Virus record (IMG/VR): IMGVR_UViG_2671180864_000008
Reading direction: 5' to 3' (one strand)
DNA length: 7,789 bases
From: a virus
Lineage: Duplodnaviria; Heunggongvirae; Uroviricota; Caudoviricetes
Each line of letters begins with the position of its first letter. The first letter of the stretch is position 1. Positions 194-7,789 of this stretch are shown here, one piece after another. The position numbers and the translations under genes are program-made. The notes under the pieces were generated by a model. The model was not told the origin of the DNA, did no database searches, and saw only the letters and a list, made by a program, of their open reading frames with translations.

Positions 194-529
194 ATGAAGT
201 GGATTGTGATTGATACAGTTATCCAGCCATCATGCGGAATATCTTTTTCAGTCATATGGAGTAAAATAAAATTAATAATCTGGTATCAATCGGATGCTTT
301 CTTACCTCCTGAAAGTATATTTACACTGACTCACACAGGCATCATGCTCAATAACAAAGTGCTACCTGTAACCATTTACAACGTAGTACCATTCAATAAA
401 ACATTCTGGAATTCAATCAAAAATAGCCAGGAATGCCCTACAAATACAGATAACGTATTGAATGAATGCTTTAATAACCGTTGCACTCTGCAAATATGTC
501 CTTATGGACTAAAACAACAAAGTCCATAA
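194..529 (+). CDS. Hypothetical protein, 111 aa, AT-rich, Cys-containing C-terminus; possible moron/cargo gene
   Basis: ATG start with AAGGAA Shine-Dalgarno 6 nt upstream (184-189). A 336-nt open frame is unexpected by chance in AT-rich DNA. No family recognised. Confidence 0.3.
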
Positions 530-695: not shown

Positions 696-874
696 CACAG
701 GGGGATTCACCATGCCAGTTTCTTTTAACAAACTCCCCGCAAAANNNNNNNNNNNNNNNNNNNNNNNNNNNNNNNNNNNNNNNNNNNNNNNNNNNNNNNN
801 NNNNNNNNNNNNNNNNNNNNNNNNNNCACAGGGGGATTCACCATGCCAGTTTCTTTTAACAAACTCCCCGCAAA
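696..874. repeat. Two identical 48-nt direct repeats (696-743 and 827-874) flanking an 82-nt run of N (745-826)
   Basis: CACAGGGGGATTCACCATGCCAGTTTCTTTTAACAAACTCCCCGCAAA occurs on both sides of the N run. Consistent with a scaffold gap between overlapping contig ends or a collapsed tandem repeat. Confidence 0.8.
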
Positions 875-1571: not shown

Positions 1572-1648
1572 TGGCGCGCTGTACTGGATTCGAACCAGTG
1601 ACCGATTGCTTAGAAGGCAATTGCTCTGTCCGGCTGAGCTAACAACGC
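1572..1648 (-). tRNA. argO: tRNA-Arg, anticodon UCU
   Basis: Hand-folded 77-nt cloverleaf on the minus strand: acceptor GCGTTGT/ACAGCGC, anticodon loop CT-TCT-AA, T-arm ACTGG-TTCGAAT-CCAGT, 3' GCCA. Symbol assumed from the ileZ-argN-argO order I recall for 933W-like phages. Confidence 0.85.
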
Positions 1649-1661
1649 ATGATGCAGATAA

Positions 1662-1738
1662 TGGACCGCCATCGGGGACTTGAACCCCGCGCAGCCAGCT
1701 TCGAAGGCTGGCGCTCTTTCCTGATGAGCTAATGGCGG
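1662..1738 (-). tRNA. argN: tRNA-Arg, anticodon UCG
   Basis: Hand-folded 77-nt cloverleaf: acceptor CCGCCAT/ATGGCGG, anticodon stem CCAGC/GCTGG with loop CT-TCG-AA, T-arm CGGGG-TTCAAGT-CCCCG, 3' TCCA. Symbol assumed from gene order only. Confidence 0.8.
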
Positions 1739-1745
1739 TATGTGA

Positions 1746-1821
1746 TGGTGGCCCTTGCTGGATTTGAACCAGCGACCTGGCGATTATGAGTCGCTCGCTC
1801 TCACCACTGAGCTAAAGGGCC
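1746..1821 (-). tRNA. ileZ: tRNA-Ile2-like, anticodon CAU (lysidine type, ileX-like), or possibly tRNA-Met
   Basis: Hand-folded 76-nt cloverleaf: acceptor GGCCCTT/AAGGGCC, anticodon loop CT-CAT-AA, T-arm GCTGG-TTCAAAT-CCAGC, 3' ACCA. Strongly resembles E. coli ileX as I recall it. Confidence 0.85.
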
Positions 1822-6096: not shown

Positions 6097-6357
6097 TCAC
6101 TCATCTTCAAAAGCAGAAAAACCAGCCTTAATCCCAGCTTCTTTCAGAGACGGCAACGATGTGACAAATTCATTTGCACGCGAAATAAAACCATCCGTCA
6201 CAAGCCCATCCACAAAATGAATTAACGCAGCTCCACTCTTCCTTTGTTGAGACTGTAAACATTTAATACGGCAGTGGCTGACAATAGCGCCATTCTCAAC
6301 GCGCACAGTATAGAGGCCATCTTCACTAAAAATTTCACGTAATTCTTCGATTTTCAT
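6097..6357 (-). CDS. Hypothetical small protein, 86 aa; position is reminiscent of rem in the Qin prophage
   Basis: The track ORF starts at a TTG (6360); the ATG at 6357 has a GGAAGGA Shine-Dalgarno 8 nt upstream. Identity as rem is not verified. Confidence 0.5.
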   Translation of the reverse strand: MKIEELREIFSEDGLYTVRVENGAIVSHCRIKCLQSQQRKSGAALIHFVDGLVTDGFISRANEFVTSLPSLKEAGIKAGFSAFEDE

Positions 6358-6439
6358 CAACAGAATCCTTCCAGATAAATAGCACTCCCCTGTTCGGGGT
6401 CCATCCCTCTTCTCCCTGCGCGCTACTTAAGTATTTTTG

Positions 6440-6469
6440 ATTCTATTCCGGCACCATCTAAAACTTCAA
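6440..6469 (-). promoter_or_regulatory. Candidate sigma70 promoter for the 6357..4311 gene block
   Basis: Minus strand TTGAAG, 18-nt spacer, TAGAAT, located between the hok terminator and the 86-aa ORF. Motif match only. Confidence 0.3.
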
Positions 6470-6476
6470 ACGCGTT

Positions 6477-6507
6477 GAAAATAAAAACAAAAACCCGCCG
6501 AAGCGGG
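6477..6507 (-). terminator. Intrinsic terminator of the hok transcript
   Basis: Minus strand CCCGC-TTCG-GCGGG followed by TTTTTGTTTTTATTTT. Confidence 0.75.
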
Positions 6508-6577
6508 TTAAGTGTGGGTGCATTGAGGATGCCTGACCCATCAGAGGTGGCGAGGGATTTCTCCCCCGCCTGGTCTC

Positions 6578-6733
6578 TTACTCCTCAGGTTCGTAAGCTG
6601 TGAAGACAGCGACCTCCGTCTGGCCGGTTCGAATTCGTACCTCGCAGAGGTCTTTCCTCGTTACCAGTGCCGTCACTATGACGGTTAAACAGATGACGAT
6701 CAGGGCGATTAACATCGCCTTTTGCTGCTTCAT
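6578..6733 (-). CDS. hokD: Hok/Gef-family type I toxin, 51 aa
   Basis: Translation from the internal ATG at 6733 (MKQQKAMLIALIVICLTVIVTALVTRKDLCEVRIRTGQTEVAVFTAYEPEE) matches HokD/RelF as I recall it. AAGGAG Shine-Dalgarno upstream. The track ORF extends in frame to an ATG at 6790 (70 aa). Confidence 0.85.
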   Translation of the reverse strand: MKQQKAMLIALIVICLTVIVTALVTRKDLCEVRIRTGQTEVAVFTAYEPEE

Positions 6734-6885
6734 AGCCTGCTTCTCCTTGCCTTTCGGCACGTAAGAGGCTAACCTAGATTTGCCGTTCATAGATTGAGCC
6801 TCAGATTAATGTTAAGCGTCTTGCCGGACGCGTAATGTTAACTGGGGCTTTTCTCTATCTGCCTTTTGGTGTTCATGCCTGAGAC

Positions 6886-6915
6886 AGATAGCCTCAAGCA
6901 CCCGCTGCAATTCTA
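6886..6915 (-). promoter_or_regulatory. Candidate hok promoter -10 (TAGAAT) and 5' tac-like element of the hok mRNA
   Basis: Minus strand TAGAAT at 6915..6910. The mRNA 5' segment GGGTGCTTGAGG (about 6898..6887) is complementary to the 3' segment CCTCAATGCACCC (about 6531..6519), consistent with the fbi/tac fold-back typical of hok mRNAs. Confidence 0.4.
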
Positions 6916-7024
6916 CTTAACTCTCCTTTTCCCGCAAACCGTTTTTATCCCCAGCGGCAAATCGAATACACCACCAGCGCCACCGCCATCGCAATTCCTA
7001 CCGTTGTTAATGCTTCAGGCCAGG

Positions 7025-7369
7025 TCATCGTAAAATATCCTCCACGCTTATCAGTCCGTTCCGCTCCAGATAACTCATCGCCTTATCCGGTAATTTGCAG
7101 TCTGGCTTCGCTTTCCTCAGTTGCCAGGTTAACTGCTTTACCAGCATGGTTAACTCATCGACCAGACGCTGATATCCCACTGGTTTGTATTCATGCAATT
7201 TACCGGCTGGCTCTGCTGCCAGCGATACCAGTGCGATTTCCAGAACAGCAATATCCATCTTATATGTGCGGATGATGTCATGGTCGATTGTGCCCGGTAT
7301 GCACAGTCTCTGTGCTTCAATAGTCTCCTCTGCGTGAGCTATTAACTGCTCTCTGGTAAAAGTCGTCAT
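7025..7369 (-). CDS. Hypothetical protein, 114 aa; paralog of the upstream 55-aa ORF
   Basis: ATG start overlapping the upstream stop (ATGA), Shine-Dalgarno GGGG. Shares the N-terminal MTTxT(K/R)E(R/Q) and the internal IAL(A/V)SL(E/A)AEP motif with ORF 7366..7533. Confidence 0.5.
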
Positions 7370-7533
7370 GCCGTAGCCCCTTCTTGATATTTTTCAAACC
7401 AGAACACAACCGGCTCTGCTTCCAGCGATGCCAGCGCAATCCGTGCCAGTTCCATTTGTTCACCACGGGTAAGCCCGTTTTCAAGCGGGTTTTTAATGAA
7501 CAATTCAATACGTTCTTTGGTAATAGTGGTCAT
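7366..7533 (-). CDS. Hypothetical small protein, 55 aa (not in the supplied ORF track)
   Basis: Translated by hand: [61 protein letters not shown] Shine-Dalgarno 6 nt upstream of the ATG at 7533. Stop TGA overlaps the ATG of the next gene. Confidence 0.5.
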
Positions 7534-7543
7534 GTGTTACTCC

Positions 7544-7789
7544 TTAACCCGCAGTGCTTTCAACTGATGAGGGGAACAAAATCTTTTCATCAAACCCTGC
7601 ATTCATATCATGAACAGCAACACACCAATCCATCGACGAACGATTATCAAGAGCCTCCATGATTTCATCCATGCGGCGTAGGTCATACAGGTAAATGCTT
7701 TTATCGCCAATGGTGTAAAAGCCAATTTTTTTCGGTGATGGATGAGGTGTACTGGCAATAGCGGACACTACCATTTGTTCTTTTTTTAA
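7544..7789 (-). CDS. Hypothetical protein, probably 5'-truncated by the window edge
   Basis: Open frame continues without a stop to the window end (in-frame LKKEQ upstream of the ATG at 7774, which has no convincing Shine-Dalgarno). Stop at 7544. Confidence 0.4.
   Translation of the reverse strand, partial: LKKEQMVVSAIASTPHPSPKKIGFYTIGDKSIYLYDLRRMDEIMEALDNRSSMDWCVAVHDMNAGFDEKILFPSSVESTAG

What the first reader, a model, noticed from the sequence alone, without database searches (positions are those of the whole stretch)
7025..7533. Overlapping pair of paralogous small genes directly upstream of hok
A 55-aa and a 114-aa ORF share an N-terminal motif (MTTITKER / MTTFTREQ) and an internal IAL(A/V)SL(E/A)AEP motif. 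They are joined by an ATGA stop/start overlap and sit where relB-relE sit upstream of hokD in E. coli K-12. They could be a duplicated nin-type regulator, or a small two-gene module such as a toxin-antitoxin or anti-defence pair.
Basis: seen in the sequence. Interest (0 to 1): 0.5.

Follow-up and report, generated by a model that had tools for sequence, protein, structure and literature searches.

The report
Mosaic Eaa-type prophage gene pair
The two small overlapping genes are real and share a common N-terminal module, but they are ordinary shuffled accessory genes of a lambda-like E. coli prophage, and the shorter one is a recombination-made hybrid rather than the partner of a toxin-antitoxin pair.

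Summary
A 55-aa ORF (7366-7533, minus strand) and a 114-aa ORF (7025-7369, minus strand) overlap by ATGA upstream of a complete hok/sok module, and their shared motifs are statistically real.

Both proteins begin with the same kind of ~40-55-aa helical module ("N-cap": MTTxTxEQL ... IALxSLxAEP). This module also opens P22 Eaa, HK620 HkaE and many DUF550/DUF551 prophage proteins.

- **114-aa protein:** a cargo-less family member, made of an N-cap plus a conserved C-terminal module ("C-cap").
- **55-aa ORF:** a chimera. Codons 1-41 are an eaa-type N-cap. Codons 42-55 and the ATGA junction are the 3' end of an HNH endonuclease gene, which precedes the identical 114-aa gene in other prophages.
- **Recombination:** the two IALxSLxAEP-coding repeats (29 nt, 203 nt apart) are a recombination substrate. 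Some prophages carry the exact 203-nt deletion product, a single 101-aa gene in the same slot.
- **Partner not conserved:** only 324 of the 563 complete E. coli genomes with the 114-aa gene have the pair.

There is no similarity to toxin, antitoxin, defence or nin families. Biochemical function remains unknown. Interest is low.

The parts
7366..7533 (-). 55-aa ORF (WP_000207997.1; named 'Eaa protein' in UniRef). It is an N-cap-only chimeric ORF, and its TGA stop overlaps the ATG of the next gene.
   Evidence: The exact sequence occurs on at least 1000 contigs.
7411..7533 (-). Codons 1-41 of the 55-aa ORF: an eaa-type N-terminal module (N-cap variant A).
   Evidence: The first 126 nt are 91% identical to the starts of P22 eaa and HK620 hkaE. 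Homology stops abruptly at about codon 40-42. pN/pS is 0.11-0.33.
7366..7410 (-). Codons 42-55 plus the stop of the 55-aa ORF ([14 protein letters not shown]): the 3' end of an HNH endonuclease gene, including the ATGA junction.
   Evidence: This stretch is identical in DNA to the end of the 121-aa HNH gene WP_001229296.1, which precedes the 114-aa gene in E. coli EH2252. Distant HNH homologues (28-50% identity) align to residues 114-120 of 121, so the tail is native to the HNH family.
7025..7369 (-). 114-aa ORF (WP_000206826.1): a cargo-less protein made of an N-cap and a C-cap.
   Evidence: The AF2 model is all-helical with mean pLDDT 82.
7208..7369 (-). N-cap variant B, residues 1-54 of the 114-aa protein. 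It is predicted to form a helical hairpin (helices 6-23 and 30-51).
   Evidence: The same module opens DUF551 and other proteins of 145-302 aa (P0066, P0282-P0319)..
7028..7174 (-). C-cap, residues 66-114 ([37 protein letters not shown]). It is predicted to form three helices.
   Evidence: In almost every listed hit this module lies at the extreme C-terminus, in proteins of 50-389 aa with varied middle parts. 291 representatives score E <= 1e-3.
7412..7440 (.). Copy 1 of the 29-nt direct repeat that encodes [10 protein letters not shown].
   Evidence: It is 86% identical to the copy at 7209-7237 and lies 203 nt from it.
7209..7237 (.). Copy 2 of the 29-nt direct repeat, encoding [10 protein letters not shown]. 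It is the crossover site of the 203-nt deletion variant.
   Evidence: In alignment A1, L003 and L005 equal the window minus 203 nt, and the flanks are identical apart from one L005 substitution. The crossover lies inside the shared ATCGCTGG.
6945..7028 (-). Unannotated 27-aa hydrophobic ORF ([27 protein letters not shown]). It is joined to the 114-aa stop by a second ATGA overlap and has a GGAGGA Shine-Dalgarno-like sequence.
   Evidence: It is intact in 70 of 79 IMG/VR loci and disrupted in the rest.
6578..6903 (-). Autonomous hok/mok/sok type I toxin-antitoxin module. It is a neighbour of the pair, not part of it.
   Evidence: Pfam HOK_GEF and Rfam sok RF01794 at 112 bits. It is absent or replaced in other contexts.
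7544..7789 (-). 3' part of the upstream 87-aa gene (phrog_1714; WP_000224227.1). Its start lies beyond the window end.

Best explanation
The pair consists of two neighbouring members of the mosaic Eaa-type family of accessory genes. These genes sit in the early operons of lambdoid and P22-like prophages of E. coli, Shigella and Salmonella.

Family members are built from three parts: a conserved helical N-terminal module (N-cap: MTTxTxEQL ... IALxSLxAEP), an exchangeable middle 'cargo' (DUF550 dATP/dGTP pyrophosphohydrolase, DUF551, others, or nothing), and often a conserved C-terminal module (C-cap).

- The 114-aa gene is a minimal, cargo-less version: N-cap, short linker, C-cap.
- The 55-aa ORF is a recombination product. 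It joins the first ~41 codons of an eaa-type gene, in frame, to the last 14 codons of an HNH endonuclease gene. In other prophages that HNH gene sits immediately upstream of the 114-aa gene and overlaps it by the same ATGA.

The resemblance between the two ORFs is therefore the shared N-cap. The ATGA overlap is inherited from the HNH/114-aa arrangement. The two IALxSLxAEP-coding repeats, 203 nt apart, recombine further and collapse the pair into a single 101-aa gene.

The genes lie in the rightward early operon, between the replication genes and Q, and both have ribosome-binding sites, so both are probably expressed on induction (inferred).

Protein function is inferred, not shown. The N-cap hairpin is most likely a protein-protein interaction or oligomerisation handle that presents variable cargo, by analogy with the conserved N-terminal and coiled-coil part of Ea22. 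On that view the 114-aa protein would be an adaptor-like accessory protein, and the 55-aa product a dispensable by-product.
For: Shown:
- **Shared N-cap.** Both proteins hit the N-terminal parts of the same PHROG profiles. Pairwise and profile similarity is significant.
- **eaa origin of the 55-aa ORF.** Its N-cap is 86-93% identical in protein, and 91% in DNA, to the starts of P22 eaa (317 aa, DUF550 + DUF551) and HK620 hkaE (DUF551). Homology ends at about codon 41, and pN/pS is 0.11-0.33.
- **HNH origin of its tail.** The tail and ATGA junction are identical to the 3' end of the HNH gene in L011. The tail is native to the HNH family.
- **Module shuffling seen directly.** P0031 (101 aa) is N-cap A fused to the C-part of the 114-aa protein, and sits in the same slot. 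P0066 is N-cap B fused to DUF551. The C-cap ends proteins of 50-389 aa.
- **Repeat spacing matches the deletion.** The repeats are 203 nt apart and the deletion is 203 nt.
- **Variable partner.**
- **The cargo-less architecture persists with divergence.** N-cap + C-cap proteins exist down to about 40-46% identity (P0324, P0347), so the 114-aa type is a real protein family.
- **Structure.** The AF2 model is all-helical with pLDDT 82.
- **Operon position.** The homologous prophage places the genes in one co-directional run from cro to Q.

The Ea22 analogy rests on its mosaic architecture and tetramerisation, taken from PMC10834534.
Against: - No experiment or structural match says what the N-cap or C-cap does. 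Fold searches returned only generic helical hits and one uncharacterised homologue, phage N15 gp45.
- The 55-aa ORF keeps a good ribosome-binding site and an intact frame in hundreds of genomes. N-cap::HNH-tail ORFs exist with at least three different N-cap bodies (the window ORF, P0230 and P0240). One of them lies upstream of a DUF551 gene rather than the 114-aa gene. That persistence could reflect selection rather than a neutral scar.
- Sequences carrying the pair are nearly identical, so selection on the 55-aa ORF itself cannot be measured.
- hhalign aligned only the last 15 columns of the two N-cap types. The bodies of variants A and B may be very diverged or not homologous.
Confidence: 0.8

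Rival explanations
1. The pair is a type II toxin-antitoxin module or another two-component addiction or abortive-infection module. The 55-aa acidic protein would neutralise the 114-aa protein. The two would be translationally coupled and sit in the slot that relBE occupies upstream of hokD.
For: - The two genes are small and coupled by an ATGA overlap.
- The 55-aa protein is acidic, with pI 4.8.
- The surrounding slot is rich in toxin-antitoxin modules in related prophages: hok/sok, ParDE, RelBE, Fic and HTH-ImmA/IrrE.
- Short N-cap ORFs with the same tail recur upstream of different genes.
Against: - The partner is not conserved. The intact HNH gene replaces it in front of a >=99% identical 114-aa gene in 19 of 80 loci. 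Only 324 of 563 genomes have the pair, and the 120-aa orthologue has no partner.
- A fused 101-aa single gene is viable in the same slot.
- There are no hits to toxin, antitoxin or defence families in Pfam, NCBIfam or PADLOC.
- The 114-aa protein is also acidic (pI 5.9) and is a helical protein with no recognisable toxin fold.
- The putative antitoxin is a chimera whose body is the N-terminus of a larger enzyme-carrying protein family.
Confidence: 0.05
2. Both products are functional, and the split is selected. The proteins could act, for example, as early-expressed anti-defence or host-takeover factors.
For: - The frame and ribosome-binding site are intact in hundreds of genomes.
- N-cap-only ORFs recur with several different bodies and tails.
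- Three N-cap genes lie within about 1.2 kb in the homologous prophage.
- The N-cap is under purifying selection at family level.
- The genes sit in early-operon accessory regions, both ea and nin, where anti-defence genes are often found (general knowledge).
Against: - There is no direct evidence of interaction. The AF2 model of the natural 55+114 fusion was uninformative (pLDDT 49).
- The tails of N-cap-only ORFs are heterogeneous and often out-of-frame read-through, as expected of scars.
- PGAP flags a neighbouring N-cap fragment as a pseudogene.
- The pair collapses to one gene, or loses the 55-aa ORF, without other visible change in the locus.
Confidence: 0.12
3. The pair arose as a simple local tandem duplication of one small regulator gene (a 'nin-type regulator') that then diverged.
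For: The two ORFs are adjacent and co-oriented, and share start and end motifs in their first ~41-54 residues.
Against: - The bodies of the two N-caps differ in length (41 vs 54 aa) and do not align outside their ends.
- Each N-cap variant has much closer relatives (>=85% identity) at the start of other genes elsewhere: P22 eaa for variant A and P0066 for variant B.
- The tail of the 55-aa ORF comes from an HNH gene.
- There is no DNA-binding or nin-family signature.
Confidence: 0.03

Closest known systems
P22 Eaa / HK620 HkaE (eaa-type DUF550/DUF551 accessory proteins of the early-left 'ea' region)
   Same: The first ~41 residues of the 55-aa ORF are 86-93% identical to the Eaa and HkaE N-termini (91% at DNA level). 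UniRef already names the 55-aa sequence 'Eaa protein'. The genes are non-structural genes of an early operon.
   Different: Both window proteins lack the DUF550 and DUF551 domains (compared). Here the genes lie in the nin-equivalent region of the rightward operon rather than next to int and xis. Eaa itself has no established function.
Lambda / Stx-phage Ea22 (Ead_Ea22, PF13935)
   Same: The design principle is the same: a conserved N-terminal and helical part carrying mosaic, exchangeable C-terminal domains, including DUF551. Ead_Ea22 genes are neighbours in the same arrays (PMC10834534).
   Different: Neither ORF matches PF13935 or the NCBIfam ead/Ea22-like models. Neither has a long coiled coil. 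The pro-lysogenic activity of Ea22 cannot be transferred to these proteins.
Free-standing phage HNH endonuclease (PF01844; WP_001229296.1, ArgO145-type)
   Same: The last 14 codons of the 55-aa ORF and its ATGA junction with the 114-aa gene are identical to the 3' end of this gene.
   Different: The HNH catalytic core (residues 19-68) is entirely missing, so the 55-aa product cannot be a nuclease.
relBE-hokD operon of the K-12 Qin prophage (type II toxin-antitoxin upstream of hok)
   Same: A small overlapping gene pair lies upstream of a hok gene in a lambdoid prophage.
   Different: The pair has no sequence or family similarity to RelB or RelE. hok here carries its own sok/mok regulatory region. 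The partner and hok are both variable.
Phage N15 gp45 (uncharacterised)
   Same: It is the only significant fold and sequence match in the viral structure library: 35% identity, Foldseek E = 4e-4.
   Different: It is 139 aa long, its function is unknown, and it adds no mechanistic information.

Membership tests
Eaa-type mosaic family (P22 Eaa / HK620 HkaE) | N-terminal module [12 protein letters not shown]...[10 protein letters not shown] at the start of the protein | tested here: met
   The 55-aa ORF is 86-93% identical over residues 1-42/44 to P22 Eaa and HK620 HkaE. The 114-aa protein carries a diverged variant that hits the same PHROG N-terminal profiles.
Eaa-type mosaic family (P22 Eaa / HK620 HkaE) | C-terminal DUF550 (dATP/dGTP pyrophosphohydrolase) and/or DUF551 domain | tested here: not met
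   Neither ORF has a Pfam hit at E <= 1. P22 Eaa hits PF04447 and PF04448 strongly.
Ead/Ea22-like family (PF13935 / NCBIfam) | Match to the Ead_Ea22 profile (N-terminal segment plus central coiled coil) | tested here: not met
   No Pfam or NCBIfam hit. One phage record labels the neighbouring genes Ea22 or EaA by annotation only.
Type II toxin-antitoxin module | Two small adjacent or overlapping co-transcribed genes | tested here: met
   ATGA overlap, same strand, ribosome-binding sites present.
Type II toxin-antitoxin module | The two genes are inherited together, as a conserved cognate pair | tested here: not met
   324 of 563 genomes have the pair. HNH replaces the 55-aa ORF in 19 of 80 loci. 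The orthologue has no partner, and a fused single gene exists.
Type II toxin-antitoxin module | Toxin or antitoxin homologous to a known toxin-antitoxin superfamily, or antitoxin with a DNA-binding fold | tested here: not met
   No Pfam, NCBIfam or PADLOC hits. The model shows helical hairpins only, with no significant PDB fold match.
Type II toxin-antitoxin module | Toxicity of one product that is neutralised by the other | not testable with these tools
   Requires expression experiments.
Lambda nin-region gene families (NinB, NinE, NinF, NinG, NinH and others) / regulators | Profile match to a Nin family or to a DNA-binding regulator domain | tested here: not met
   No Pfam or NCBIfam hit for either ORF. 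Only their position, between the replication genes and Q, is nin-like.
HNH endonuclease (PF01844) | HNH catalytic motif and zinc-binding cysteines | tested here: not met
   The 55-aa ORF shares only the final 14 residues. The HNH domain lies at residues 19-68 of the 121-aa protein.
Known anti-phage defence systems (PADLOC) | Match to any PADLOC-DB model | tested here: not met
   0 families at E <= 1 for the pair and for three neighbouring ORFs.

The most novel reading that the evidence does not exclude
The N-cap and C-cap may be functional 'handles' of a cassette-like protein family, for example for oligomerisation and for target or partner binding. Their conserved coding sequences would also serve as recombination joints for swapping cargo.

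On this reading, the cargo-less 114-aa protein and the free 55-aa N-cap would be selected modulators. They would co-assemble with cargo-bearing paralogues encoded in the same operon, tuning an early-phase host-takeover or anti-defence activity. The pair would then be a naturally 'split' Eaa protein rather than a scar.
Probability: 0.1. Interest if true: 0.5.

Novelty: new member of a known kind. Interest (0 to 1): 0.2.

Why it matters

It also gives an unusually clean worked example of how accessory genes of lambdoid prophages are rebuilt by in-frame recombination at short conserved coding motifs. All the related forms are visible in public genomes at near-identical flanking sequence:
- the HNH gene followed by the 114-aa gene;
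- the N-cap::HNH-tail chimera followed by the 114-aa gene;
- the fused 101-aa gene.

For annotation, the 55-aa ORF should be treated as an Eaa N-terminal fragment and the 114-aa ORF as a cargo-less N-cap/C-cap protein.

The unanswered question is what the very common Eaa-type N- and C-terminal modules do. That question is of moderate interest for phage accessory-gene biology. Nothing here points to a new kind of system.

Tried and rejected
- **Family searches.** Pfam, NCBIfam and PADLOC gave no hits for either ORF. PHROGs gave only families of unknown function.
- **Fold searches on the 114-aa model.** The AF2 model is good (pLDDT 82). Foldseek against the PDB gave no match at E <= 0.001, only generic helical bundles and hairpins. 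BFVD gave only the uncharacterised homologue N15 gp45. An HMM search of the PDB gave nothing meaningful.
- **Natural fusion as a heterodimer proxy.** I modelled P0001 (55+114 aa), hoping it would show whether the two N-caps pack together. Its mean pLDDT was 49, so it is uninformative and was discarded.
- **Genome-contig scan with the family alignment.** Only one confirmed locus came back, a 1.8-kb contig binned as Segatella copri that is 100% identical to the E. coli gene. It is almost certainly mis-binned and says nothing about taxonomic breadth.
- **Literature.**
  - The first search was swamped by EAAT glutamate-transporter papers.
  - The DUF550/DUF551 and EaA/P22 searches gave background on Ea22 mosaicism and YfdS, but nothing on the N-cap, the C-cap or these proteins.
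  - The RefSeq accessions occur in no held paper.
- **Selection on the 55-aa ORF.** dN/dS cannot be measured because copies carrying the pair are >=98.8% identical. Only the family-level N-cap comparison with P22 and HK620 was possible.
- **27-aa ORF and DUF551.** The cluster look-up grouped the 27-aa ORF with 185-aa DUF551 proteins. Inspecting the sequences showed no real similarity, so this is a clustering artefact for a very short sequence.
- **Programmed frameshifting.** I considered it as an explanation for the fused 167/168-aa forms (P0001, P0002, P0024). I rejected it because they are rare single-contig variants with differing frames through the junction, consistent with indels or assembly errors.

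Full report

Yes. The minus strand carries a 55-aa ORF (7366-7533) and a 114-aa ORF (7025-7369). The TGA stop of the first overlaps the ATG of the second as ATGA. Both are preceded by Shine-Dalgarno-like sequences.

hok/mok lies downstream at 6578-6790 (Pfam HOK_GEF, E = 3e-23). An Rfam sok match covers 6728-6903. The hok locus is therefore a complete, self-regulated module that begins about 120 nt after the 114-aa stop.

- BLASTP gives E = 1e-5.
- The Smith-Waterman score was reached by 1 of 20,000 shuffles, and by none once the first eight residues were removed.
- A profile-profile comparison of the two module sub-families gives 91.6% probability, but over only the last 15 columns.
- Both proteins hit the N-terminal parts of the same four PHROG profiles.

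**2. Genomic setting**

The window is the early-right and late-regulatory part of a lambdoid E. coli prophage, read on the minus strand. From the window's right end the genes run:
- an 87-aa gene cut by the window end
- the 55-aa ORF
- the 114-aa ORF
- hok/sok
- an 87-aa ORF (6097-6360)
- a 92-aa ORF
- DUF968/YdfU
- RusA
- the antiterminator Q
- a 65-aa ORF
- a DNA methyltransferase
- three tRNAs

In a complete genome whose pair region is 100% identical, the whole run from cro through the replication genes to Q is co-directional. The pair therefore sits in the nin-equivalent accessory region. RefSeq calls both ORFs hypothetical proteins. UniRef names the 55-aa sequence 'Eaa protein'.

**3. What the two proteins are**

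Database searches show a modular family.

- **N-cap.** Residues 1-41 of the 55-aa ORF, and residues 1-54 of the 114-aa protein in a diverged and longer version, form a module that I call the N-cap. It starts with MTTxTxEQL and ends with IALxSLxAEP.
- **Where the N-cap occurs.** N-cap variant A is 86-93% identical to the N-termini of P22 Eaa (317 aa; DUF550 dATP/dGTP pyrophosphohydrolase plus DUF551) and HK620 HkaE (DUF551). It is 91% identical to them at DNA level over the first 126 nt, and similarity stops abruptly at about codon 41. N-cap variant B opens DUF551 and other proteins of 145-302 aa (P0066, P0282-P0319).
- **C-cap.** Residues 66-114 of the 114-aa protein ([37 protein letters not shown]) form a second module. 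In almost every listed hit it lies at the extreme C-terminus, in proteins of 50-389 aa whose middles differ completely. 291 cluster representatives score E <= 1e-3.

The 114-aa protein is thus a minimal N-cap, linker, C-cap member with no cargo. This cargo-less architecture persists down to about 40-46% identity (P0324, P0347), so it is a genuine protein type.

AlphaFold2 predicts an all-helical protein with mean pLDDT 82. The N-cap forms a helical hairpin and the C-cap forms three helices. The low pTM of 0.42 means the two modules are not confidently packed against each other.

**4. The 55-aa ORF is a chimera**

In E. coli EH2252 the same 114-aa gene is preceded by a 121-aa HNH endonuclease gene with the same 4-nt overlap. 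That HNH protein ends ...[17 protein letters not shown].

A DNA alignment shows the window is identical to that locus from GTTGTGTTCTGG (codon 42 of the 55-aa ORF) onward. Upstream of that point the two are unrelated.

Distant HNH homologues from Acinetobacter, Vibrio, Caulobacter, T4-like and Streptococcus phages (28-50% identity) align out to residues 114-120 of 121. The tail therefore belongs natively to the HNH family and was not donated by an N-cap gene.

So the 55-aa ORF is eaa-type codons 1-41 joined in frame to the last 14 codons of an HNH gene. The ATGA overlap that looked like a hallmark of a dedicated pair is inherited from the HNH/114-aa arrangement.

**5. The shared motif is a recombination joint**

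The two IALxSLxAEP-coding stretches form a 29-nt direct repeat, 86% identical, with copies 203 nt apart.

Protein P0031 (101 aa) is N-cap A fused at IALASLAAEP to the C-part of the 114-aa protein. It occupies the same slot: 87-aa gene, 101-aa gene, hok. Its DNA equals the window minus exactly 203 nt, and the flanks are identical apart from one substitution in L005. The crossover lies inside the shared ATCGCTGG.

Other shuffled forms exist:
- N-cap B fused to DUF551 (P0066).
- N-cap-only ORFs with many different tails, often out of frame.
- The same HNH tail behind at least three different N-cap bodies. One (P0230) lies upstream of the same 114-aa gene and hok. Another (P0240) lies upstream of a 264-271-aa DUF551 gene in the ea region near int.
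- The C-cap gene likewise ends in a conserved ...CGATGACC junction. This leads either into a 27-aa ORF or into a DUF551 gene.

**6. Is it a conserved pair?**

No.
- Among 5,426 complete E. coli genomes, 563 carry the 114-aa gene at >=80% coverage and 324 carry the full pair.
- Of 80 IMG/VR loci carrying a >=99% identical 114-aa gene, one could not be typed. In the other 79 the upstream gene is the N-cap::HNH-tail ORF in 60 and the intact HNH gene in 19.
- hok follows in 52 of the 76 loci with enough downstream sequence.
- An 89%-identical 120-aa orthologue follows a DUF7167 gene, with or without hok.
- In EH2252 a ParDE module replaces hok.
- The fused 101-aa gene and the P0240 arrangement also occur next to xis and int, far from any hok.

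These counts are dominated by closely related prophages. They describe occurrence, not independent events.

**7. Mechanism**

Shown: the resemblance between the two ORFs, the chimeric origin of the short one, the ATGA junction inherited from the HNH arrangement, and the interconversion between the pair and the single gene.

Inferred: both ORFs are expressed from the early rightward transcript, based on co-orientation, ribosome-binding sites and coupling.

Inferred with low confidence: the N-cap hairpin is a protein-protein or oligomerisation handle that presents variable cargo. The analogy is with Ea22, whose conserved N-terminal and coiled-coil part carries mosaic C-terminal domains and whose full-length protein is tetrameric (PMC10834534). 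On that view the 114-aa protein is a cargo-less adaptor-like accessory protein, and the 55-aa product is most likely a tolerated by-product. Purifying selection on the N-cap can be shown only at family level (pN/pS 0.11-0.33 from small counts).

**8. Rivals**

- **Toxin-antitoxin or anti-defence pair.** This is contradicted by the variable partner, the viable fused gene, the lack of any family match and the absence of a toxin-like fold. I give it about 5%.
- **A selected 'split Eaa'**, in which the free N-cap modulates paralogues. This cannot be excluded, because the frame and ribosome-binding site are intact in hundreds of genomes and three N-cap genes lie within about 1.2 kb. There is no positive evidence for it, and the one test I could devise was uninformative. 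I give it about 10-12%.
- **A simple local duplication.** This is contradicted by the closer relatives each module has elsewhere and by the HNH-derived tail.

**9. Comparison with known systems, and novelty**

The closest known relatives are P22 Eaa and HK620 HkaE, which share the N-cap but have DUF550/DUF551 domains that are absent here. Ea22 shares the design logic, but the profile test for membership failed. The ArgO145-type HNH endonuclease contributes only a 14-residue tail.

Mosaicism of lambdoid accessory genes is well known. What is added here is a precise dissection of one locus and the recognition of the N-cap and C-cap modules, which current Pfam and NCBIfam models do not cover. I classify this as a new member of a known kind, of low interest (0.2).

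Noticed in passing
window 6945-7028 (minus strand): An unannotated 27-aa hydrophobic ORF ([27 protein letters not shown]) starts with a second ATGA overlap on the stop of the 114-aa gene and has a GGAGGA Shine-Dalgarno-like sequence. It follows the C-cap gene in most nin-region loci, with conservative substitutions and one in-frame 2-aa insertion. It is frameshifted or start-mutated in about 10% of copies (L002, L025; 8 of 79 IMG/VR loci). In ea-region relatives the same junction leads into a DUF551 gene instead. It may be a small membrane peptide or only a junction remnant.
   Followed up: partly
window about 6100-6945, and loci L001, L011, L012, L024-L026: The slot between the C-cap gene and the DUF968-RusA-Q block varies between otherwise similar prophages. 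It holds hok/sok (here), hok plus HTH-ImmA/IrrE, ParD-ParE, hok plus Fic, Rem, or an unknown 96-aa gene on the opposite strand. It looks like a hotspot for toxin-antitoxin or defence cargo.
   Followed up: partly
just beyond the window's right end; L012 9785-10225 (minus strand): A third N-cap gene lies one gene upstream of the pair. It encodes 146 aa (MTTFTDKELIKEIKERIGSLD...[10 protein letters not shown] followed by cargo) and ends where a C-cap would begin in relatives such as P0069. PGAP annotates only its first ~42 codons, as a truncated pseudogene, while a phage record calls it 'Ea22 protein'.
   Followed up: partly
window 745-826: A run of 82 N (masked sequence or an assembly gap) is flanked on both sides by the same ~44-nt sequence (GGGGGATTCACCATGCCAGTTTCTTTTAACAAACTCCCCGCAAA). 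It directly adjoins an Rfam STnc100 sRNA match at 555-744 (134 bits). It probably hides a tandem repeat of that element.
   Followed up: no
window 1572-1821 (minus strand): Three prophage tRNA genes lie downstream of the DNA methyltransferase: Arg-TCT, Arg-TCG and a CAT-anticodon tRNA. ARAGORN calls the last one Met, but RefSeq annotates the homologous gene as tRNA-Ile, which would be read as Ile if the anticodon is lysidine-modified.
   Followed up: no
L029 (JAJXBQ010000377.1, 1780 bp): A contig binned into a 'Segatella copri' metagenome-assembled genome carries a 114-aa gene 100% identical to the E. coli prophage gene. It is almost certainly a mis-binned E. coli prophage fragment.
   Followed up: no
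proteins P0001, P0002, P0024, P0011, P0029 (relatives of window 6945-7533): Rare variants in Logan, ENA and NCBI assemblies fuse the 55-aa and 114-aa ORFs (137-168 aa), or fuse the 114-aa ORF to the 27-aa ORF (143 aa or less), through single-base frame changes near the ATGA junctions (a GGGG run). They are probably indels or assembly errors, and they show how easily the coupled ORFs fuse.
   Followed up: partly
cluster look-up for the ORF at window 6945-7028: The 90%-identity protein clustering places the 27-aa peptide in a cluster whose representative is a 185-aa DUF551 protein, although the two share no real similarity. This is a clustering artefact for very short sequences, and could mislead annotation transfer.
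   Followed up: yes
window 194-529 (plus strand): The 111-aa ORF at the left end corresponds in position to the gene annotated 'anti-adapter protein IraM' in the homologous prophages (L001, L012), beyond the tRNA cluster. I did not compare it at sequence level.
   Followed up: no
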